The translations under genes and the position numbers were made by a program. Below are positions 50,709 to 57,800 of a stretch of 64,000 nt of DNA, piece by piece. Origin of the DNA: Escherichia coli (GTDB lineage: Bacteria > Pseudomonadota > Gammaproteobacteria > Enterobacterales > Enterobacteriaceae). The DNA lies in the NCBI RefSeq assembly GCF_003018235.1, contig NZ_CP027437.1; one strand, 5' to 3'. The notes under the pieces were generated by a model that had not been told where the DNA came from, made no database searches, and saw only the letters and a program-made list of their open reading frames with translations. Numbering within the stretch: position 1 is the first letter of the stretch; every line of letters begins with the position of its first letter.

Positions 50709-50984
50709 TCACTTCTGCGGGTAGTTGCGCCATACTGCTTTACCAATACCAGCTATCCCCATTTGTTTTTCAGTGCGATTAACTGACCTTTTCAGAGCGC
50801 CTAAATCATCCGGCGGCTCCGGTGGCCTCTGTGCCTTCCTGGAACATTCCTGCCGTCGCATTGCCACCTGTGCGCGTTCCTTGTCTGTCTCCACCAGCAT
50901 CATCACTTCACCCCATCGCGCCGCCGCCCTCCTGTAAAATCCTTTCGCCTCGAGTTCCTCCGCTATACGGTCATGTACCATCAT
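50709..50984 (-). CDS. PerC-family transcriptional activator-like protein
   Basis: 91 aa with the N-terminal motif VHDRIAEELEAKGFYRRAAARW, typical of PerC/Pch-like proteins. A terminator hairpin gccggagcaatccggc+T6 follows the stop. Confidence 0.55.
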   Translation of the reverse strand: MMVHDRIAEELEAKGFYRRAAARWGEVMMLVETDKERAQVAMRRQECSRKAQRPPEPPDDLGALKRSVNRTEKQMGIAGIGKAVWRNYPQK

Positions 50985-51994
50985 TCACCACCTCCCGCAG
51001 ATGGCGATAAGCTGGCTTTGCCTCCAAGTGGATTAAACCTTATCGCCTCTGTCAGAAAATCCGGCGCAAAATGCGCGTAAACCATTGTCTGTTGTATGCT
51101 CGCGTGCCCCAGTATCCTTTGCAGTGTGATTATATTCCCCCCGTTCATCATGAAATGTGTCGCGAATGTGTGCCGTAATACGTGGGTGGCCTGGCCTTTT
51201 GGTAAGTCCGGTTTTACTGACTTGATGACCTCCCTGAACTCCAGATAATCCACATCAAACAACTGTCCCTTTTTACCTCTCGTTACAAGTTCCAGAACGT
51301 CATCAGACACCGGAACAGCTCGCGCCCGTCCGTTCTTCGTCTCCGTAAACATTACCTTGTTACTGACTATATTTTCCCGTCGTAGCGTCGATGACTCCCC
51401 ATAACGCGCCCCCGTCGAAAGACACAAAACAGCCAGCGCGAGACAGTCGCCTTTGGCAATATTCAGTAAATGATTAACCTCATCATCACCAAGAAAACTC
51501 ATAGCCTTGTTTGGTGCTTTCAGCTTGCGTAATCCACTCAAAGGGTTTTCACCGTGATACATACCGCATTCGATTAGCCCCCTGAACATTCCTGATATAA
51601 CCGACAAATCACGGTTAACAGTCAACGGACTAAGGCCGCATCCCAGCTTGTCGGCTCTGTATTCCATGAGCATTGCGCGGGTTATGTTGCAGATTCGTGG
51701 ATCCCCCATTTCACGGATAACCTTCATCATGCGCATAAACGATTGTTCGCCGTATTCCTCCGATCTTCCGATAAACTCCATCCATAAGTTAGCCAGATCA
51801 GATAACAGGCGAATATCTGCGGCGCGTGACTCCCAGGGCTTATTATGACAATGAAGCAGTATGTATTTTTCGTAATCACGGGCTTTTGTCTGCGAGGGAA
51901 AAATCTTTCTTATCCGTCGCCCGTAAGCGCCATTTGGCCTTACGTCAACCAGCCAGCGACCATCCTCACACTTCCTTATCGCCATGCTCCACAC
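50981..51994 (-). CDS. Internal tyrosine recombinase (phage integrase family)
   Basis: 337 aa with a C-terminal catalytic region HVLRHTFAT...HASIQQTMVYAHF (H-x-x-R ... Y). Overlapping start and stop with flanking genes. Confidence 0.75.
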   Translation of the reverse strand: MWSMAIRKCEDGRWLVDVRPNGAYGRRIRKIFPSQTKARDYEKYILLHCHNKPWESRAADIRLLSDLANLWMEFIGRSEEYGEQSFMRMMKVIREMGDPRICNITRAMLMEYRADKLGCGLSPLTVNRDLSVISGMFRGLIECGMYHGENPLSGLRKLKAPNKAMSFLGDDEVNHLLNIAKGDCLALAVLCLSTGARYGESSTLRRENIVSNKVMFTETKNGRARAVPVSDDVLELVTRGKKGQLFDVDYLEFREVIKSVKPDLPKGQATHVLRHTFATHFMMNGGNIITLQRILGHASIQQTMVYAHFAPDFLTEAIRFNPLGGKASLSPSAGGGE

Positions 51995-52226
51995 CCTTAA
52001 CGTTGATGGTTGTTACCTGTTCCGCTTCGGCTATCTCCCGTTCGGTCAGCGTGGCAAAGTTTGCCGCCGCTGTGGTCATGAATGCGCTTATCAGTTCGGG
52101 ATGTGCTTTCGCGTATCCTTCTCCCGTGTTGCGGTCTATCGTTCTGATTGCCACCTTTAAGGCGTGCTCTGTCATGTCTAATGCGCGATATTTTGGCGCT
52201 GCCTTATCTCTGGTTTTTCTGGTCAT
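51966..52226 (-). CDS. Hypothetical 86-aa protein
   Basis: ORF between the iterons and the internal recombinase; it overlaps the recombinase start. Confidence 0.4.
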   Translation of the reverse strand: MTRKTRDKAAPKYRALDMTEHALKVAIRTIDRNTGEGYAKAHPELISAFMTTAAANFATLTEREIAEAEQVTTINVKGVEHGDKEV

Positions 52227-52234
52227 TCCTCACC

Positions 52235-52430
52235 ACTCCTCACTTTTACTCCTCACTTTTTGTTATTCCTCGCCTGCTCCTCACCTGTTTTTTTTGCTTC
52301 TGTAATGCGTTGTTTTGCAATGTATTTTTTATTCCTCACTTTTTGACCTATATACAGGTGAGAAAGTGAGGAGTAGCGCTGATTTTTTGTTAAATTACTC
52401 GCTACCCTCACTTTTACTCCTCACTTTTTA
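52235..52430. repeat. Iteron array (CCTCACTTTTT, at least 6 direct copies and 1 inverted) - candidate origin of replication
   Basis: Copies at 52237, 52249, 52280 (variant), 52333, 52405, 52417 and an inverted gtgaggag at 52361. They lie immediately 3' of the rep gene, AT-rich, as in SaPI/PICI origins. Confidence 0.7.
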
Positions 52431-53828
52431 CAGTGGGTGCACATCATCGCCATCAATAGCGATTACGCCGTCACCTTCCAGCTTGTACAGCCAGCGCCGG
52501 AAATTTTTCATCTCATACCCCAGCTTTTTCATATCGTCGCGGAGAAGGGCGATAGTGCACGCCTCCCCGTGTGCTGTCCTCGTTCTGATGCACTGCCATA
52601 GCGCGGCGTGATTCTCCGTCTTGTTTCCGGCCTCCTCGATGCGCTCCAGTTCAACGGGTGGGCGCGGTTTATCCACAACCACCAGCGACGTGATTAACTC
52701 CCCGTCAGCGTCGGTAAAAAGCTCCACCACACGTAAATCGTATGCGGCCTCTTTCAGTTCCTCCGCGTCCTTCATTTTGGTGCAGGAGATAACCAGGGCT
52801 TCACAGTCCGCACCTTCACGGCGAATACGGTATTCAGCGTCCAGAGATGCACGAAATGCACTGGAACCACGCGCCCCTTTCGTCTCATCCTTGCCGGAAT
52901 GGTGAACCACCAGCACCGTGGCCCCTGTGCGTCGTTTCAGTTCGTCACATCCACGGATAAACGCCCCCATGTCACGGGAATCATTTTCATCATTGCCGCC
53001 AAAGCAACGCGCCAGCGTATCCAGAATAATCATGCGTACAGGTTTACCCGTTTCCCGCTCCACCTGGCTGGCTGCGATAACCATTTCATCAACATCAAGC
53101 GGGGCCGCCGGAAAAATGGGACGGTTTACCAGATACAGATTTTTCACCTGCTCACCGTGCACAACCTCCCAGGCTTTTACACGACGTGGAACGCCGATAC
53201 CGCCTTCACCAACCACATAGAGAACCGCACCATGTGCAACCCTGCGGCCTCCCCAGTAGCGACCTGTGGAAACGTGACACGCCCACGATCCGGCAAGGAA
53301 TGATTTATAGGAACCGCTCGCCCCGTATATGCTGCATAGCGATACCGCCGGAATAATTCCCTTAACCACGTAATCAAGTTGCGTGTCGTATCCGGCAGAA
53401 CCAATGCTCATCGGTAGTTTGGTTTTCCGCTGGTGGCTTTTTTCTTCCTCCTGCGCTTTACCGCGCTCCCGTTCCAGATATTCGCGCCAGTTCTCCCGCT
53501 TCTGGCTGTGCATCCCATCTGGGTAATAATTCGCATCCCGTACACCTGCTGCCGCCAGCTTTTGCGCTATGGCATTAATGCTCGATGGCTTGATATGGCC
53601 TGCCCTGTACAGACGGACGCAATAGCGGCCCTCGTCGATGATTCTCAGGTCTGGCAGTTCAGCCAGTTGATCATCAGCCAGCACAACGGGAGGCACATTA
53701 TCGCCAGCAAGTCGCCCGTCCTGCTCCTGCCACTGCTTCGCGTGTGCCCAGGCATCACTACCCGCAAAAATAATGACTTCTGTCATTTTGTCGTAAGGCT
53801 GTTTTCTTAAGTTCGGTGCGCTCTTCAT
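52428..53828 (-). CDS. Replication protein: RecA/DnaB-fold (RepA-like) AAA ATPase with an N-terminal extension
   Basis: 466 aa with Walker A GASGSYKS and Walker B MIILDTLAR, consistent with the RepA/primase-associated helicase-loader family of satellite elements. Confidence 0.7.
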   Translation of the reverse strand: MKSAPNLRKQPYDKMTEVIIFAGSDAWAHAKQWQEQDGRLAGDNVPPVVLADDQLAELPDLRIIDEGRYCVRLYRAGHIKPSSINAIAQKLAAAGVRDANYYPDGMHSQKRENWREYLERERGKAQEEEKSHQRKTKLPMSIGSAGYDTQLDYVVKGIIPAVSLCSIYGASGSYKSFLAGSWACHVSTGRYWGGRRVAHGAVLYVVGEGGIGVPRRVKAWEVVHGEQVKNLYLVNRPIFPAAPLDVDEMVIAASQVERETGKPVRMIILDTLARCFGGNDENDSRDMGAFIRGCDELKRRTGATVLVVHHSGKDETKGARGSSAFRASLDAEYRIRREGADCEALVISCTKMKDAEELKEAAYDLRVVELFTDADGELITSLVVVDKPRPPVELERIEEAGNKTENHAALWQCIRTRTAHGEACTIALLRDDMKKLGYEMKNFRRWLYKLEGDGVIAIDGDDVHPL

Positions 53829-54121
53829 TTGCCTTTTCTCCCTCTGGCTATCTGGTTGCGTAACTCCGCTATGTGCTGTGCTATCGTTCCTGAATCATCA
53901 CAGCAATATTTCTTTTCCTTCAGAGGCGTAAAATCCTTCTCAAATTGCAACCGGAACATCACATTCTCAAATAAATATCCAGAACGTATAAAAGTAATAA
54001 ATGTGCTGTTAACTCTCGTCACTGTCACATAATTACCGTCACCATCCAGATAAATATCACCTTTAATAATTTCAGGGCGAGGAAGGCCGCTGGCAGTTGC
54101 GCCAGTATTTTTCTTTTTCAT
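53825..54121 (-). CDS. Hypothetical 98-aa protein
   Basis: ORF overlapping the rep start by 4 nt (coupled). No recognisable domain. Confidence 0.45.
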   Translation of the reverse strand: MKKKNTGATASGLPRPEIIKGDIYLDGDGNYVTVTRVNSTFITFIRSGYLFENVMFRLQFEKDFTPLKEKKYCCDDSGTIAQHIAELRNQIARGRKGK

Positions 54122-54137
54122 GGTATTTACCTTTCTG

Positions 54138-54419
54138 TTATTCGTCGTTCTGAATAAAACGTTGTTCTCTTATTTCAGAAAGTATCCTGTAAACATTCTT
54201 ATCACTTACCACTTGATGATAATCATCATCCTCAATAAAACACATCAGCGCCTTATTACGGATATATATTTCTCTGGAAAGAAACTGTATCGCCGCGACT
54301 GCCCTTTCTTCTGTAATTCCGTTCATTGACTCACGTTCAATAATAATATTAAGTGCGGCGGATGCGTCTTCCAGTTCAATAAGGTAAGCAGCGAGGTTAT
54401 TTTTTATTCCATTAGACAT
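54138..54419 (-). CDS. Hypothetical 93-aa acidic protein
   Basis: ORF in the operon upstream of rep. Confidence 0.45.
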   Translation of the reverse strand: MSNGIKNNLAAYLIELEDASAALNIIIERESMNGITEERAVAAIQFLSREIYIRNKALMCFIEDDDYHQVVSDKNVYRILSEIREQRFIQNDE

Positions 54420-54615
54420 GGCTCACCCCCTGACAGATTTTTGCAGCGAATACAGCAACACAACCGGACGGGCAAAGGTTACGCGCTTCGCGTTCCGTCC
54501 AGGCGGTTACGTGGATGATTTGATGGTCTGACGCGCCAAAGGCAATAAAGCGCCAGGTGAATTTATTCAGGTTGTGCGAGTCCCGCCCTTGCGGGTGTGT
54601 GATATGATTTAACAT
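54412..54615 (-). CDS. Hypothetical 67-aa protein (MLNHITHPQGRD...); the real gene inside the 353-aa six-frame ORF
   Basis: ATG at 54615 with a GAGGT RBS 6 nt upstream. The rest of the 54412..55473 ORF runs antisense through a promoter region and other genes and is implausible. Confidence 0.5.
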   Translation of the reverse strand: MLNHITHPQGRDSHNLNKFTWRFIAFGASDHQIIHVTAWTEREARNLCPSGCVAVFAAKICQGVSHV

Positions 54616-54712
54616 AGCTACCTCGATACTATTGCTATCGTTGGTGGTTAGAAGCCTGTGGGTGTTAGCGGCACCTACGGGCTTCGCAGTTTCTGAACCT
54701 TGAACACTCAAG

Positions 54713-54794
54713 GTGTAAGACACAACATAAAACAACAGTGTCTTACACGTCAACCCTTTAAAATAGTTTTTTTTCGTGTATATTGTCTTACACC
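54713..54794. promoter_or_regulatory. Divergent promoter/operator region with three GTGTCTTACAC sites (one inverted)
   Basis: gtgtaagacac at 54713, gtgtcttacac at 54739 and tgtcttacacc at 54784. They lie between the minus-strand 67-aa gene and the plus-strand 61-aa gene. Confidence 0.6.
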
Positions 54795-54814
54795 AAAAAC
54801 ATGAGGGGTTAGAC

Positions 54815-55000
54815 ATGGCAACAGGTCCAAAGAATGCAAAATCACAATCTGTAACTGCACGTATTGCCCATGAAATTATTGAAGGCATGGAAAACGTGAA
54901 AGAAGATGGCGAAAGTACAGGGCAGTTTATAAGCGCAGCCATGCGTGGCGAGATCAAACGCCGCCAACGGAAAAAAACCAAAGAATCAGATAAGGAATAA
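54815..55000 (+). CDS. Small 61-aa basic protein (MATGPKNAKSQS...), candidate repressor/regulator of the switch region
   Basis: ATG at 54815 preceded by a GAGGGG RBS. The six-frame ORF begins at an upstream GTG at 54776, inside operator site 3. Confidence 0.45.
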   Translation: MATGPKNAKSQSVTARIAHEIIEGMENVKEDGESTGQFISAAMRGEIKRRQRKKTKESDKE

Positions 55001-55003
55001 CTT

Positions 55004-55147
55004 ATGCAGCAAGTACTATACTGGCTTGGCTCTTTGTTTTTATTTGCTTTCCTCCTGGGAAATTGCATCAGCAATGAACACGTCAGTAATGAGCGTGTAT
55101 GCAGGAGTGATGAAAAAAAGATTCCACGCCTCATATACAATGATTGA
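55004..55147 (+). CDS. Candidate 47-aa hydrophobic peptide (MQQVLYWLGSLFLFAFLLGNC...)
   Basis: ATG 4 nt after the upstream stop, with an AAGGAA RBS. It has a single predicted TM helix. It is below the 60-aa ORF cut-off, and a competing 68-aa ORF lies in another frame at 54945..55151. Confidence 0.25.
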   Translation: MQQVLYWLGSLFLFAFLLGNCISNEHVSNERVCRSDEKKIPRLIYND

Positions 55148-55477
55148 TTAGCTCGTGCAGCACTAAAGCAACGCAAGGCCAAAGAGCAGGAATAGCCCAC
55201 CAGCAAGCCAGCGCACTGATCACATTGCCCACCAGCCGCAAATGTGGCATTGTTGGCTATGCTCATGCGTTGGGGATAACGTGTAGCTTGTGTCGAGGGG
55301 CCACCGTAGCGGGTGGCCTTTGTTTTGCCTGTTATCCGGCAATTGTGGCGCTTCGCCACACGGTTGATATAATTCCCCTGCACTGATCCATTTTTTTCGC
55401 AGCAGGTTAATTGTTCGCAAGGGCGCTCCGGCAACGGGGCGCTTTTTGTTATGTTCATCGCGTTACGCCTCACACCA

Positions 55478-55684
55478 TTACGCAGCCGTTCCGCGCGCTT
55501 CTTCCTCGCGCTCTTTCAGCCAGGCCAGCACTTCATCTTCATACCAGCCAACACGACGCAGACCGATTTTGAAGCCTTTCGGGAATTTTCCGGCGTTGAT
55601 CATGTCCTGTAGCGAACTGTCCGCCTTGATGCGAAGAATATTTTTTACTTCCTGACGGGTGAGTATTTTTCTGATTACTTCCAT
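55478..55684 (-). CDS. alpA: AlpA-family phage/island transcriptional regulator (MerR-like HTH)
   Basis: 68 aa; ...LRIKADSSLQDMINAGKFPKGFKIGLRRVGWYEDEVLAWL... matches the AlpA/Xis-like HTH pattern. Confidence 0.7.
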   Translation of the reverse strand: MEVIRKILTRQEVKNILRIKADSSLQDMINAGKFPKGFKIGLRRVGWYEDEVLAWLKEREEEARGTAA

Positions 55685-55724
55685 CGTGTTTTACCTCATT
55701 AATCCGGCGTGTTCCGGTGATAAA

Positions 55725-55790
55725 TACGGTAAAACAGGGAAGGGCGGGAAAAACAGTACCTACCGTTTTAAAACGGTACCCACTGTTTTT
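55725..55790. promoter_or_regulatory. alpA upstream operator: 40-bp near-perfect palindrome centred on TACCGTTTTAAAACGGTA, plus an extra ACGGTAAAAC half-site
   Basis: aaacagtacc-taccgttttaaaacggta-cccactgtttt at 55750-55790; an additional half-site lies at 55727-55737. Confidence 0.6.
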
Positions 55791-55821
55791 TATCTCGTTG
55801 ATTGTGCTTCTTTTTGCAAAA

Positions 55822-55850
55822 AATAGCGACCGCAAGGGGCCGCTATTGTG
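55822..55850 (-). terminator. Rho-independent terminator between the 77-aa gene and alpA
   Basis: Minus strand reads atagcggccccttgcggtcgctat followed by tttttgc. Confidence 0.5.
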
Positions 55851-55851
55851 A

Positions 55852-56085
55852 TTACCGTCTCCACTTCTTAGGTCGCCCACCGCATTTAAGGCTGGTGGGC
55901 CTCAGCACCTTGTCGATGCTTTCAGCCAGATTTTTCGATACGCCACGTGAGCGCAAAAAACTGACTACCTCGTGTTTTGTGGGGGCTGTTGATTTGTCTT
56001 CCGGATCGTACGTTGACCAGAATTCACGGCTTACCAGTACAGCCAGTTCAAGCCCGTCACAAGTGCCATTGATGTTTGTTTGCAT
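55852..56085 (-). CDS. Hypothetical 77-aa protein (possible excision/regulatory factor)
   Basis: ORF directly downstream of int, with a basic C-terminus CGGRPKKWRR. Confidence 0.45.
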   Translation of the reverse strand: MQTNINGTCDGLELAVLVSREFWSTYDPEDKSTAPTKHEVVSFLRSRGVSKNLAESIDKVLRPTSLKCGGRPKKWRR

Positions 56086-56189
56086 GTTGATGCTCTCTTC
56101 ATGTTTGGCGGCCTTTGGGGGTAACGAGATAATGCAACTATACGACGGTTTTACATGGTTTTCATCGTTTTTGCTGGTTTTGTGTACAG

Positions 56190-57449
56190 TTATACCGCAC
56201 GGATACCCCTTTTACCACCAGCAAGGGTAACGCCCGTTGCCGCTGCCTCAACAAATTCCCCCCACCAGCGCATCAGCACAATGCGTTTTTCCAGGTAGTT
56301 ACTGCGGTTGTAGGCTCTCCTTACTTCGTTGGTGTCCACGTGGGCCAGTGCGGCCTCGATTACGTCCGGCTCGAATCCTTCCTCGTTTGCTGCTGTGCTG
56401 AATATGGCGCGTAATCCATGAGACACCAGCACGCCAGCGAACCCCATGCGCCGTAATGCTGCGTTGGCGGTCTGGCTGTTCATCGGCTGGCGTGGGTCTT
56501 TCAGGCTCGGGAAAACATGCTCGCGGTGGTGGCTGATTGGTTTCATGGCCTCCAGCACTGCCATAGCCTGACCGCAAAGCGGGATAACGTGATCACGTCG
56601 CATCTTCATACGTCCGGCTGGTATCGTCCATTGTTGCTCGTCCAGGTCGATTTCTTCCCAGCGTGCTGACGATGCCTCAACAGGACGGGTTACGGTAAGT
56701 AGCTGCCACTCAATCAGTAGTCTTGTCTGCCGTTCTGTTGCCGATACGGATAAAGCCCGCATAAGCTCCGGTAGCTGCTCGGGGCGGATTGTTGGCATAT
56801 GTTTTTTTACTGGGGTGGGGAAGGCCTTGCGCACGTTTGTAGCCGGATTGGTATCAATCATCCCGCTGTTGGCGGCGTAATCCATAACTTCATTGATGCG
56901 CTGTAAAACCCGCTTGAGCGTTTCCAGGTTGCCGCGTTCCTTGATGGGGGTGAGTATCTCCACGAACCTGCGGGCGGTGAGGGTGTCTACTGGCGTGTCA
57001 CCGATGAACGGGAATACATATTTCTCCAGCGATCTCCATATGTCTTTAATTGTGTTGGGTGCAAGATTCTGGCTGATTTTCACCTGGTACCATGCCGCTG
57101 CTACATTTTCGAACGTGTTGCCCTGTCTCCGTTCCTCTGCTTCGCGTTTTCGTCGCTCGTGTTCCTGTGGGTCGGTGCCGGAAGAAATTAACGTCCTGTA
57201 CTCGCTACGGCGTTTTCTGGCATCAGCCAAGGAAACATCATCAAGCGATCCAAAACTCAGCAATATTCTTTTTTTGTCCAATGGGCGGTAGTAGGAAAAT
57301 CGCCAGAGTTTTGATCCAGACGGTTTGACCAGGAGAAAAAGCCCTCCGCCGTCCTGTAGGGTGTACTCCTTTTCCGCTGGTCTGGCTGCTTTGATCTGCA
57401 CTGTGGTTAATGGGGTTGTTTTTCTCGCCATATGTCTATGATTCCACAC
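56190..57449 (-). CDS. int: P4-type tyrosine integrase (N-terminal DUF4102 arm-binding domain)
   Basis: 419 aa. The N-terminus LTTVQIKAARPAEKEYTLQDGGGLFLLVKPSGSKLWRFSY is characteristic of P4/CP4-57-type integrases. C-terminal HGLR...Y catalytic residues. Adjacent to the tRNA. Confidence 0.85.
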   Translation of the reverse strand: MWNHRHMARKTTPLTTVQIKAARPAEKEYTLQDGGGLFLLVKPSGSKLWRFSYYRPLDKKRILLSFGSLDDVSLADARKRRSEYRTLISSGTDPQEHERRKREAEERRQGNTFENVAAAWYQVKISQNLAPNTIKDIWRSLEKYVFPFIGDTPVDTLTARRFVEILTPIKERGNLETLKRVLQRINEVMDYAANSGMIDTNPATNVRKAFPTPVKKHMPTIRPEQLPELMRALSVSATERQTRLLIEWQLLTVTRPVEASSARWEEIDLDEQQWTIPAGRMKMRRDHVIPLCGQAMAVLEAMKPISHHREHVFPSLKDPRQPMNSQTANAALRRMGFAGVLVSHGLRAIFSTAANEEGFEPDVIEAALAHVDTNEVRRAYNRSNYLEKRIVLMRWWGEFVEAAATGVTLAGGKRGIRAV

Positions 57450-57530
57450 GAAAAAATGGGGTTTTAGTTATACGGCTTTAGTTATACGTCAGCCCGTATA
57501 ACTAAACGTATAACTAAAAAATCCGGCTGA
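57450..57530. promoter_or_regulatory. attR-proximal integrase arm-type sites (TTAGTTATACG x2, CGTATAACTAA x2)
   Basis: Four 11-mers in alternating orientation between the int start and proL. The same motif occurs at the left end of the island. Confidence 0.6.
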
Positions 57531-57649
57531 TAGCTTATAAATCCGGTGATGTCCGGTGACTAAAAACCATAAAAAAACCCGCCAATCAAGTGATTAGCGG
57601 GCTTTTCGTGTCTGAAACTGTTATTTCCGGTGGTATCCGGTGGGCGATT

Positions 57650-57726
57650 TGGTCGGCACGAGAGGATTTGAACCTCCGACCCCCGACACCCCATGACGGT
57701 GCGCTACCAGGCTGCGCTACGTGCCG
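57650..57726 (-). tRNA. proL: tRNA-Pro (GGG)
   Basis: Plus strand is the exact reverse complement of CGGCACGUAGCGCAGCCUGGUAGCGCACCGUCAUGGGGUGUCGGGGGUCGGAGGUUCAAAUCCUCUCGUGCCGACCA. Confidence 0.95.
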
Positions 57727-57800
57727 ACTCGTGGCTGCTAATACTACCGTTTTCCACACCGATTGCAAGTAAGATATTTTGCTAACTGATTTATAATTAA

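What the first reader, a model, noticed from the sequence alone, without database searches (positions are those of the whole stretch)
54616..55150. Divergent genetic switch with triplicated GTGTCTTACAC operators and two tiny plus-strand genes, one a hydrophobic 47-aa peptide
The intergenic region between the minus-strand early operon and a plus-strand pair contains two inverted copies and one direct copy of an 11-bp site. The plus-strand pair comprises a 61-aa basic protein and a coupled 47-aa single-TM peptide. The third site overlaps the start region of the 61-aa gene, which is a typical autoregulated repressor layout. Together this looks like the island immunity switch. The small membrane peptide could be a toxin, a holin-like effector or a superinfection-exclusion factor.
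Basis: seen in the sequence. Interest (0 to 1): 0.55.

Follow-up and report, generated by a model that had tools for sequence, protein, structure and literature searches.

The report
Satellite-island repressor switch with matching operators
A 61-residue protein of unknown function (YlcI/YnfO family) is very probably the self-regulating repressor that keeps a phage-satellite island of E. coli silent. The same cassette is present in the laboratory model island EcCICFT073, for which no repressor has been identified.

Summary
Three copies of GTGTCTTACAC (one inverted, one with one mismatch) lie in the 199-bp gap between a leftward operon and a rightward gene pair. They sit on the core elements of two back-to-back promoters.

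The 61-aa protein belongs to the YlcI/YnfO family and models as a ribbon-helix-helix DNA binder. Across 44 related loci the promoters and the three-site layout stay fixed. The site sequence changes in step with the protein's predicted DNA-reading strand, giving 12 classes. Two nearly identical islands differ only in this cassette. YlcI is therefore the most likely operator binder, repressing the early (kil-like and replication) operon and itself. This is inferred, not shown experimentally.

That frame runs from alpA into the kil-like gene, as the eta/kil nested pair does in satellite phage P4. The island looks like a P4-type immunity region whose RNA repressor is replaced by a protein.

The 47-aa peptide is probably a real gene but a rare, mobile accessory, not part of the conserved switch. 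Its function is unknown.

The model island EcCICFT073 carries the same cassette.

The parts
54713..54723 (.). Operator O1 (GTGTAAGACAC on the + strand, inverted copy). It overlaps the predicted transcription start of the leftward promoter.
   Evidence: conserved position and class-specific sequence in 44 loci
54738..54748 (.). Operator O2 (GTGTCTTACAC). It lies in the spacer between -35 and -10 of the leftward promoter.
54783..54793 (.). Operator O3 (TTGTCTTACAC). It overlaps the end of the -10 and the start site of the ylcI promoter.
54724..54753 (-). Predicted leftward early promoter P_left (-35 TTGACG 54753-54748, 18-nt spacer, -10 TATGTT 54729-54724), analogous to P4 P_LE.
   Evidence: -35 TTGAnn in 43 of 44 loci and a TAnnnT -10 at 17-18 nt in 43 of 44
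54757..54784 (+). Predicted ylcI promoter P_right (-35 TTTAAA, 16-nt spacer, -10 TATATT 54779-54784).
   Evidence: a TATAnT-like hexamer at a fixed -36 from the ATG in most of the 44 loci
54815..55000 (+). ylcI: 61-aa YlcI/YnfO-family protein with a predicted ribbon-helix-helix fold; candidate repressor.
55004..55147 (+). 47-aa ORF: hydrophobic N-terminal segment and two conserved cysteines; rare accessory gene coupled to ylcI.
55296..55321 (+). Terminator-like hairpin with T-run, downstream of the rightward gene pair.
   Evidence: consensus scan only
55419..55446 (+). Second terminator-like hairpin with T-run on the + strand, just before the alpA end.
   Evidence: consensus scan only
54651..54685 (-). 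Leader hairpin 1 of the leftward transcript, conserved with compensatory changes.
   Evidence: no Rfam family
54624..54640 (-). Leader hairpin 2, immediately upstream of the kil-like start. In most relatives the Shine-Dalgarno sits in its loop.
54412..54615 (-). kil/icd-like gene (67 aa), first gene of the leftward operon. It belongs to the same NCBIfam family as P4 Kil.
   Evidence: NF033153 E = 9.6e-17; P4 Kil E = 1.6e-21
54412..55473 (-). eta-like open frame (353 codons from GTG 55473; an in-frame ATG at 55458 has a GAGG 9 nt upstream). It is the in-frame upstream extension of the kil-like gene and runs antisense through the 47-aa ORF, ylcI, all three operators and the leader.
   Evidence: only the C-terminal Icd-like domain matches any family
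55478..55684 (-). alpA (68 aa, AlpA/Vis family), immediately upstream of the eta-like frame; the known activator gene of Gram-negative PICIs.
   Evidence: Pfam PF05930; jackhmmer with P4 Vis; function from PMC6092414
54541..55450 (.). Exchangeable cassette. This interval is 97.7% identical in an unrelated island backbone (L001). The sub-interval of about 54660-55398 is replaced by a different allele in an otherwise 96-99.8% identical island (L003).

Best explanation
The region is the immunity and early-control cassette of a Gram-negative phage-inducible chromosomal island (PICI) integrated at tRNA-Pro next to yejM.

Proposed mechanism in the silent state. YlcI, a 61-aa ribbon-helix-helix protein, binds the three near-palindromic sites. 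O2 (promoter spacer) and O1 (start site) block the leftward early promoter. That promoter drives the kil/icd-like gene, DUF4222, the RepA-type helicase and downstream genes. O3 blocks ylcI's own promoter, giving negative autoregulation. The island therefore stays silent without a helper phage. Different islands carry different protein and operator specificities, which would make them heteroimmune.

Proposed mechanism on induction. The cassette lies antisense inside an eta-like open frame that starts at the end of alpA and ends as the kil-like protein. When a helper phage switches on alpA (shown for EcCICFT073), transcription from the alpA promoter would read leftward through the cassette. Translation of the open frame would protect that transcript from termination, as in P4. 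It would reach the replication genes regardless of YlcI, and it would collide with and oppose ylcI expression.

Status of each step.
- Shown here: the sites, their positions on conserved promoter elements, the RHH fold prediction, operator and protein co-variation, cassette exchange, and conservation of the open frame.
- Inferred: binding, repression, autoregulation, read-through and interference.

The 47-aa gene is an accessory passenger co-transcribed with the repressor.
For: Island identity: int, alpA, kil/icd-like, DUF4222, RepA helicase, PerC and a protease-capsid fusion, next to tRNA-Pro.

Promoter overlap. The promoter hexamers are conserved in 43 of 44 loci while the operators vary.

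Co-variation: 12 classes of residues 12/14/16 map one-to-one onto 12 operator cores. All three sites change together within a locus. A Mantel test of operator against strand residues gives r = 0.60, exceeded by 0 of 5000 permutations.

Cassette exchange: the SCU-111 island has identical kil and alpA flanks (96-99.8%) but a different ylcI allele and different operators, GTGTGGCCCAC. The specificity determinant therefore lies inside the cassette, and YlcI is the only conserved protein there.

eta-like frame: 33 of 41 loci have zero stops in the kil frame across antisense ylcI, against about 8.5 stops in each of the other two frames. In at least 17 loci the frame begins within about 40 nt of the end of the AlpA/Vis homologue. 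In EcCICFT073 the count is 1 stop against 19 and 28.

P4 link: P4 Kil falls in the same HMM family. The P4 eta/kil mechanism is summarised in PMC10111431.

AlpA: it activates downstream genes, and on its own induces replication of EcCICFT073 (PMC6092414).
Against: - No binding or expression data exist.
- The promoters are consensus matches (9 of 12), and matches of that quality are not enriched over shuffles in this region.
- Operators and ylcI are adjacent, so some co-variation is expected from linkage alone. The partial correlation of operator with the strand residues, given the rest of the protein, is only 0.30 (exceeded by 19 of 5000 permutations).
- The monomer model shows an extended segment, not a called beta-strand.
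- Foldseek and sequence searches against PDB found nothing.
- Site spacings (25 and 45 bp centre to centre) do not match the adjacent half-sites typical of Arc, CopG or omega.
- The published model for these islands needs only AlpA and no repressor.
- Rho-dependent termination and interference by read-through are untested here.
Confidence: 0.68

Rival explanations
1. The three sites are bound by AlpA, or by another island protein outside the cassette, and serve activation rather than repression. YlcI would then do something unrelated.
For: AlpA is the experimentally established regulator of these islands and activates downstream genes (PMC6092414). alpA lies directly upstream.
Against: The window and the SCU-111 island have 99.8% identical alpA-int DNA and near-identical kil-like genes, yet their operators differ (GTGTCTTACAC against GTGTGGCCCAC). 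The sites cover the spacer and start sites of the promoters, which are positions typical of repressors. No further copies occur near alpA or int.
Confidence: 0.07
2. ylcI and the 47-aa ORF form a two-gene toxin-antitoxin or addiction module: an RHH antitoxin and autorepressor with a small membrane toxin. The operators only autoregulate that pair.
Against: The peptide gene is absent from the 40 loci from other species and from EcCICFT073. It is present in only 8 of 5426 E. coli genomes, whereas the 1.1-kb region (54400-55500) containing the cassette matches in 1661. It also occurs behind unrelated regulators and truncated ylcI remnants. Two of the three operators sit on the opposite, leftward promoter. 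PADLOC and Pfam give no hit.
Confidence: 0.08
3. The long minus-strand ORF (54412-55473) is an ordinary protein-coding gene (an 'Ash/Icd-like' protein). ylcI and the 47-aa ORF would then be antisense artefacts, and the repeats would lie inside coding sequence.
For: The frame is open over 353 codons here and in most relatives. PGAP sometimes annotates long 'ash family' or Icd-like proteins across this region (P0108).
Against: Only the last ~50 residues match any family. The upstream part is non-homologous between loci while the frame stays open. YlcI is a conserved family with a confident fold, 13 invariant columns, its own Shine-Dalgarno and its own promoter. P4 shows that such a frame can matter for being translated, not for its product.
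Confidence: 0.05
4. Early control is exerted mainly by RNA, with the conserved leader hairpins acting like the P4 CI / P1 C4 RNA. YlcI would be a minor modulator.
For: Two leader hairpins carry compensatory changes and fold better than shuffles (z = -2.7). A related island (L002) carries true C4 and isrK elements in the same leader. The gene order matches the P4 and P1 immI layouts.
Against: No C4 or isrK match was found in the window even with permissive thresholds. Of the 17 YlcI-family loci scanned, only L002 had such a match, while the P4 positive control scored 75 and 61 bits. The hairpins are short and no complementary target repeats were seen. The hairpins do not explain three DNA sites that change with the protein.
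Confidence: 0.1

Closest known systems
Satellite phage P4 immunity region (P_LL-vis ... P_LE-CI RNA-kil, nested in eta)
   Same: The gene order is the same: an AlpA/Vis homologue, then an open frame starting at its end, an internal constitutive-type promoter, a structured leader, and a Kil/Icd-family gene as the in-frame C-terminus. Replication genes (helicase/primase) follow. P4 logic: eta translation from the upstream promoter prevents termination (PMC10111431; citing Forti et al. 1999).
   Different: The P4 immunity factor is the CI RNA (Rfam C4) acting with seqA (Rfam isrK). Both were detected in P4 but not in the window. Here a protein gene with three DNA operators lies on the opposite strand inside the eta-like frame, which P4 lacks. 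There is no DNA or BLASTP similarity to P4 beyond the HMM family.
EcCICFT073, the model Gram-negative PICI (Fillol-Salom et al. 2018, PMC6092414)
   Same: It carries the same cassette: int, alpA, then YlcI/YnfO plus a small ORF on the opposite strand, then Icd-like, DUF4222 and primase. It has three operators and an open eta-like frame. Its ylcI allele is the same class as in the SCU-111 island.
   Different: The ylcI allele (SQALKARVP) and the operators (GTGTGGCCCAC) differ from the window's. The downstream small ORF is an unrelated 57-aa protein. The paper reports AlpA as activator and states that a global repressor is unclear. YlcI is not mentioned in it or in PMC10111431 or PMC11773190.
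Ribbon-helix-helix repressors of mobile elements (P22 Arc and Mnt, plasmid CopG, pSM19035 omega, RHH antitoxins)
   Same: Small size, an N-terminal DNA-reading strand followed by two helices, a Ser/Thr-containing helix-helix turn (usually G-E-S-T), repeated or pseudo-palindromic operators over promoters, and autoregulation. This resemblance to the known properties of these families rests on general knowledge.
   Different: There is no detectable sequence similarity to any solved RHH. The sites are 11-13 bp near-palindromes spaced 25 and 45 bp apart, not adjacent half-sites or heptad arrays. The protein has a long basic C-terminal tail.
SaPI/Gram-positive PICI master repressors (Stl/Rpr) at divergent promoters
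   Same: The repressor gene diverges from the excision-replication operon and holds the island silent until a helper phage acts (background in PMC6092414).
   Different: Stl proteins are larger HTH proteins inactivated by helper proteins. Here the fold is RHH, int and alpA are on the other side, and an AlpA-driven read-through route exists. No anti-repressor is known.

Membership tests
YlcI/YnfO family (NCBIfam NF041551) | Score above the curated cut-off of the family HMM | tested here: met
   65.3 bits against a cut-off of 30, E = 3.8e-18, residues 9-50; also phrog_949 at 7.8e-19. PGAP gives this name to the homologues.
Ribbon-helix-helix (Arc/MetJ/CopG) superfamily | N-terminal strand followed by two helices, matching solved RHH domains | tested here: met
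Ribbon-helix-helix (Arc/MetJ/CopG) superfamily | Conserved G-x-S/T/N turn between the two helices | tested here: met
   E33, S34 and T35 are invariant; residue 32 is G in most sequences (D in a few) in the 48-sequence alignment.
Ribbon-helix-helix (Arc/MetJ/CopG) superfamily | Obligate dimer that inserts a two-stranded sheet into the major groove of repeated sites | not testable with these tools
   Only monomer prediction is available. Indirect support: residues 12/14/16 co-vary one-to-one with the operator core.
P4-type eta/kil nested control region | First gene after the internal promoter is a Kil/Icd-family protein | tested here: met
   NF033153: window protein 9.6e-17; P4 Kil 1.6e-21.
P4-type eta/kil nested control region | In-frame open extension of kil reaching the end of the vis/alpA homologue | tested here: met
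   The window frame is open from 54414 to 55515, with its first start 4 nt after the alpA stop. Conserved in 33 of 41 loci and in EcCICFT073.
P4-type eta/kil nested control region | CI RNA and seqA elements (Rfam C4 / isrK) in the leader | tested here: not met
   No hit in the window at E up to 10. The P4 control scored 74.9 and 60.8 bits, and the one hybrid island L002 scored 75 and 80 bits.
P4-type eta/kil nested control region | Rho-dependent terminator overcome by eta translation | not testable with these tools
   Needs transcript mapping with and without a Rho inhibitor, plus stop-codon mutants.
Gram-negative PICI | int and alpA followed by a replication module, about 10 kb, at a specific attachment site, without a full phage gene set | tested here: met
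   tRNA-Pro 57650-57726; int, alpA, RepA helicase, PerC and a protease-capsid fusion; the island ends near the yejO pseudogene. Same layout as EcCICFT073.
Gram-negative PICI | Induction, excision and packaging by a helper phage | not testable with these tools
   Experimental property. No second copy of the tRNA 3' end of 13 nt or more was found in the window.
Type I toxin / holin-like small membrane peptide (for the 47-aa ORF) | Short peptide with one transmembrane segment and a charged tail | tested here: met
   Residues 4-22 have KD(19) = 1.94. The tail has 5 K+R and 5 D+E, and two cysteines are conserved.
Type I toxin / holin-like small membrane peptide (for the 47-aa ORF) | Membership of a described toxin, holin or defence family, or adjacent lysis genes | tested here: not met
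   No Pfam, NCBIfam, PHROG or PADLOC hit. The only close relatives are P0110 and P0111; the only other hit in 1.8 billion representative proteins is to a repetitive 1110-aa protein. No endolysin lies nearby.

The most novel reading that the evidence does not exclude
YlcI/YnfO-type ribbon-helix-helix proteins are the missing immunity repressors of Gram-negative PICIs, including EcCICFT073. They define at least a dozen heteroimmunity classes that are exchanged as cassettes between islands. Induction works not by inactivating the repressor but by AlpA-driven transcription that is translated through a sequence-unconstrained frame antisense to the repressor gene. That transcription bypasses the repressed promoter and shuts the repressor gene off by convergent transcription. 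The switch would be a protein-based replacement of the P4 CI-RNA immunity, built from nested antisense genes.
Probability: 0.35. Interest if true: 0.75.

Novelty: new variant of a known kind. Interest (0 to 1): 0.62.

Why it matters
Gram-negative PICIs are widespread. The 1.1-kb region containing this cassette (54400-55500) matches in 1661 of 5426 complete E. coli genomes.

The published model has only an activator, AlpA, and states that a global repressor is unclear (PMC6092414). A candidate repressor with mapped operators, present in the laboratory model EcCICFT073, makes three questions directly testable:
- What keeps these islands silent.
- Whether islands are immune to one another.
- How helper induction overrides silence.

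The analysis also assigns a likely function to an uncharacterised protein family (YlcI/YnfO). It gives a natural table of strand residues against operator sequence that could be used to study or engineer RHH specificity. Finally, it links PICIs to P4 through a shared eta/kil architecture in which RNA immunity and protein immunity are interchangeable. One island carries both.

Tried and rejected
Searches that found nothing:
- Foldseek of the YlcI model against PDB: no hit.
- Profile search of the family against PDB sequences: nothing below E = 1.
- blastn and tblastn of the cassette and of YlcI against 50,697 phage records: no match.
- Rfam over the island and, permissively, over the switch: only spurious miRNA or sRNA matches below threshold.
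- PADLOC on six small island proteins: no hit.
- Search for an attachment-site repeat of the tRNA end: none of 13 nt or more.
- Exhaustive HMMER search with the 47-aa peptide: only its close relative P0110 and a repetitive 1110-aa protein.
- BLASTP of the kil-like protein against P4 Eta: no alignment. The link was found only through the family HMM.
- Literature searches for YlcI, YnfO, DUF3950, or an RHH repressor in PICIs: nothing relevant. Forti et al. 1999 is not held.

Readings rejected:
- The alternative + frame (68-aa GTG ORF 54945-55151), because it has a stop in the more distant homologues.
- The 353-aa minus-strand ORF as an ordinary protein.
- A canonical lipoprotein signal for the peptide, because the residue before Cys21 is N or Y (read from the sequence).

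First-pass dN/dS on the three closest peptide variants was uninformative until more distant copies were added.
Full report
**Setting.** The window carries tRNA-Pro(GGG) at 57650-57726 (-) next to yejM. To its left lies a roughly 10-kb island, all on the minus strand:
- a P4-type integrase (56190-57449);
- a 77-aa ORF;
- an AlpA-family gene (55478-55684);
- a kil/icd-like gene (54412-54615);
- a 93-aa ORF and a DUF4222 gene;
- a RepA/AAA_25 helicase (52428-53828);
- a second integrase-like gene, a PerC regulator and a protease-capsid fusion.

This is the organisation of a Gram-negative phage-inducible chromosomal island (PICI). [quoted passage not shown]

**The observation.**
- GTGTCTTACAC occurs at 54713-54723 (inverted), 54738-54748, and 54783-54793 with one mismatch. 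It occurs nowhere else in the 64 kb at up to 1 mismatch.
- Relaxing to 2 mismatches adds only chance-level hits outside the island core.
- A triple recurrence of any 11-mer in a region of this size and composition arose in 12 of 2000 simulations.
- The site is itself a near-palindrome, GTGT-N3-ACAC.
- The 61-aa ORF (54815-55000) and the 47-aa ORF (55004-55147) have plausible ribosome-binding sites and are 3 nt apart. The first is basic (pI 9.5) and the second has one membrane-type segment.

**Where the sites sit.** A consensus scan finds two back-to-back promoters.
- P_left: -35 TTGACG at 54753-54748 and -10 TATGTT at 54729-54724.
- P_right: -35 TTTAAA at 54757-54762 and -10 TATATT at 54779-54784.
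- O2 fills the P_left spacer, O1 covers its start site, and O3 overlaps the end of the P_right -10 and its start site.

Such matches are not significant on their own. However, in 44 related loci the P_left -35 is TTGAnn in 43. A TAnnnT -10 follows at 17-18 nt in 43. In most loci a TATAnT-like hexamer lies exactly 36 nt before the ylcI ATG. Sites on core promoter elements are what a repressor uses. This step is inference.

**What the 61-aa protein is.**
- It scores 65.3 bits (cut-off 30) on the NCBIfam YlcI/YnfO model. It has more than 100 relatives across Enterobacterales, none with a described function (literature).
- An AlphaFold2 model built on 48 sequences is confident (pLDDT 87.6). It shows an extended N-terminal segment and two helices.
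- E33, S34 and T35 at the helix-helix turn are invariant, and G32 precedes them in most members.

**Operators and protein change together.** Forty loci from other genera were fetched by similarity to YlcI. Five annotated E. coli islands were added. All keep the three-site layout at about -102, -77 and -32 from the ATG, but the site sequence differs by class. Examples of strand residues 12-17 and their sites:
- SVTARI, SITVRV and SVTVRV go with GTGTCTTACAC.
- MTTVRI goes with GTGAAATACAC.
- KLEARV goes with GTGTCAGCCAC.
- QIASRV goes with GTGCTAACCAC.
- QLNARF goes with TGAATCGCAC.
- KMSARV goes with CTGGCACCCAG.
- KLQTRA and KIQARA go with TGGAYTCCA.
- ALKARV goes with GTGTGGCCCAC.

Grouping by the three residues expected to face DNA (12, 14, 16) gives 12 classes and 12 operator cores, one-to-one. 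Within a locus all three sites carry the same core, while the promoter hexamers between them stay constant.

A Mantel test gives r = 0.60, with 0 of 5000 permutations reaching it. Operator distance also tracks the rest of the protein (r = 0.64), and the partial correlation for the strand is modest (0.30). Statistics alone therefore cannot single out the strand.

**A natural swap experiment.** The island of E. coli SCU-111 (L003) sits at the same tRNA.
- It is 99.8% identical to the window from 55398 to 57800, which covers alpA and int.
- It is about 96% identical from 52000 to 54990.
- Between roughly 54660 and 55398 it carries a different ylcI allele, a different downstream ORF, and operators GTGTGGCCCAC.
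- Conversely, an unrelated island backbone (strain 06-00048, L001) carries the window's cassette at 97.7% identity over 54541-55450.

The factor that reads the sites is therefore encoded inside the cassette. YlcI is the only protein conserved there, because the region downstream of ylcI is non-homologous between loci. This argues against AlpA, the kil-like protein or a host factor as the binder. It also shows the cassette-wise exchange that is typical of immunity regions.

The minus-strand frame that ends as the kil-like protein stays open for 353 codons (54412-55473). It starts 4 nt after the alpA stop, and an in-frame ATG at 55458 has a GAGG 9 nt upstream. It runs antisense through the 47-aa ORF, ylcI, all three operators and the leader.
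- Only its last ~50 residues match any family.
- In 33 of 41 loci this frame has no stop from the kil start through antisense ylcI. The other two minus frames average 8.5 stops.
- The frame continues through downstream DNA that is unrelated between loci.
- In at least 17 loci it begins within about 40 nt of the end of the AlpA/Vis homologue.

This is constraint on openness, not on sequence.

Satellite phage P4 has exactly this arrangement. kil (65 aa) is nested in-frame in eta, which starts at the end of vis. Eta is translated only from the upstream late promoter, and that translation prevents termination of the transcript (PMC10111431; citing Forti et al. 1999, which is not held). P4 Kil and the window's 67-aa protein hit the same NCBIfam model, at 1.6e-21 and 9.6e-17.

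P4's immunity factor, the CI RNA, and its seqA partner are detected in P4 by Rfam C4 and isrK. They are absent from the window. Of the 17 YlcI-family loci scanned, only L002 carries them. The island thus looks like a P4-type control region in which a protein repressor, encoded on the opposite strand, takes the place of the RNA repressor.

**Working model and status of each step.**
- Quiescent state (inferred): YlcI holds P_left and its own promoter.
- Induction: helper-dependent activation of alpA, AlpA-dependent expression of the next ORF, and AlpA-alone induction of replication are shown for EcCICFT073.
- Read-through (inferred from the conserved frame and the P4 precedent): alpA-promoter transcripts, translated through the eta-like frame, reach kil and the replication genes irrespective of YlcI.
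- Interference (speculative): this convergent transcription also depresses ylcI.

Two terminator-like hairpins with T-runs on the plus strand (55296-55321 and 55419-55446) would end the ylcI transcript before alpA. They lack a U-tract in the leftward direction.

**The model island has the cassette.** In CFT073 the order is int, alpA, then on the opposite strand a 57-aa ORF and a YlcI/YnfO gene, then Icd-like, DUF4222 and primase. Its operators are GGTGTGGCCCAC (twice) and CTGTCCCCCACC. Its eta-like frame has 1 stop, against 19 and 28 in the other frames, over 1.1 kb. None of the PICI papers read mentions YlcI. Full-text searches found no study of the family. The library is incomplete, so prior work cannot be excluded.

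**The 47-aa ORF.**
- It has only two close relatives among 5.8 billion clustered proteins and none further among 1.8 billion representatives.
- DNA search finds it in 8 of 5426 complete E. coli genomes.
- The more distant copies (78-82% nucleotide identity) keep the frame, the start and a pattern: M-(Q/H)-Q-x-x-YWLGSLF-x-FAFL...C21-ISNE...C33. The alternative plus frame acquires a stop in those copies.
- dN/dS in its frame is 0.30-0.44 in seven comparisons, generally the lowest of the plus frames. By my rough estimate from those counts, the excess of synonymous changes in the two most divergent comparisons is significant at about 0.01-0.02. No formal test was run, and the comparisons are not independent.
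- It follows four different upstream contexts: two ylcI classes, a truncated ylcI remnant, and an unrelated 64-aa RHH-like gene.

It is therefore probably a real, mobile accessory gene co-transcribed with the repressor. That position is typical of genes expressed in the silent state, such as exclusion or defence genes (general knowledge). It is not part of the conserved switch, and no family, defence or lysis assignment could be made.

**Leader RNA.** The leftward leader holds two hairpins (54651-54685 and 54624-54640). Eleven of 14 pairs show compensatory changes across 33 loci, and the fold z-score is -2.7. In most relatives the Shine-Dalgarno of the kil-like gene lies in the loop of the second hairpin. 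No Rfam family matches. Their role is open: stability, translation control of kil, or termination.

**Verdict.** The reading as an autoregulated repressor or immunity switch is well supported by comparative evidence but untested biochemically. The peptide is a side issue. The kind of device, a small RHH repressor on divergent promoters of a mobile element, is classical. What is new:
- a probable function for the YlcI/YnfO family;
- the presence of the cassette in the model Gram-negative PICI, which is thought to lack a known repressor;
- the table of operator and protein classes;
- the nesting of the cassette antisense in a P4-like eta frame.

Noticed in passing
L002:6240-6425 (E. coli IGC_RcoliRes_1.1, same tRNA-Pro/yejM site): One related island carries both control types in series. 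A 338-bp insert with Rfam isrK (80 bits) and C4 (75 bits), the P4-type RNA immunity elements, sits between the YlcI-controlled leader and the kil-like gene. The eta-like frame is still open across it. PGAP calls part of it a partial 'ash family protein'.
   Followed up: partly
window 54624-54640 and 54651-54685 (minus strand): Two conserved hairpins lie in the leader of the leftward operon, with compensatory base changes across 33 loci and no Rfam family. A highly conserved TCTAACCAC follows the first hairpin.
   Followed up: partly
window 52333-52372: A near-perfect 18-nt-arm palindrome (TCCTCACTTT...AAAGTGAGGA) lies just downstream of the RepA-type helicase gene. It produced spurious microRNA-family hits on both strands. 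It could be an origin or a terminator.
   Followed up: no
window 55745-55790 (minus strand), upstream of alpA: A GGTACCGTTTTAAAACGGTA palindrome is followed by a third GGTACTGTTTT copy in the alpA promoter region. These are possible AlpA boxes for its reported positive autoregulation. The scan also listed part of this region as a terminator-like hairpin.
   Followed up: no
L047:2139-2183 and L047:2184-2378 (E. coli A33); the same protein in L048: A different 64-aa protein occupies the ylcI slot. It has a weak, sub-threshold HicB-family (PF05534) Pfam hit (E = 0.008) and a strand-then-helix sequence pattern that looks RHH-like. Two copies of a perfect palindrome, GGTGTACACC, lie 35 bp apart, the second abutting its ATG. 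The 54-aa homologue of the peptide follows.
   Followed up: partly
window 50981-51994 (minus strand): A second, shorter integrase-family gene (337 aa) lies inside the island between the replication genes and PerC, in addition to the tRNA-proximal integrase. It is conserved in the SCU-111 island.
   Followed up: no
L024:5461-5529 and L044:8634-8701: The Rfam int-alpA RNA motif is present between int and alpA in two related islands. It was not detected in the window at E up to 1.
   Followed up: no
L044:5320-5625 and L049:1820-2125: Longer (101-aa) YlcI-family proteins carry a C-terminal extension. They are followed by a 42-43-aa ORF whose C-terminus repeats the YlcI tail (RRQRKK.KE.DKE). This suggests recombination within the 3' end of ylcI when the peptide module moves.
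   Followed up: partly
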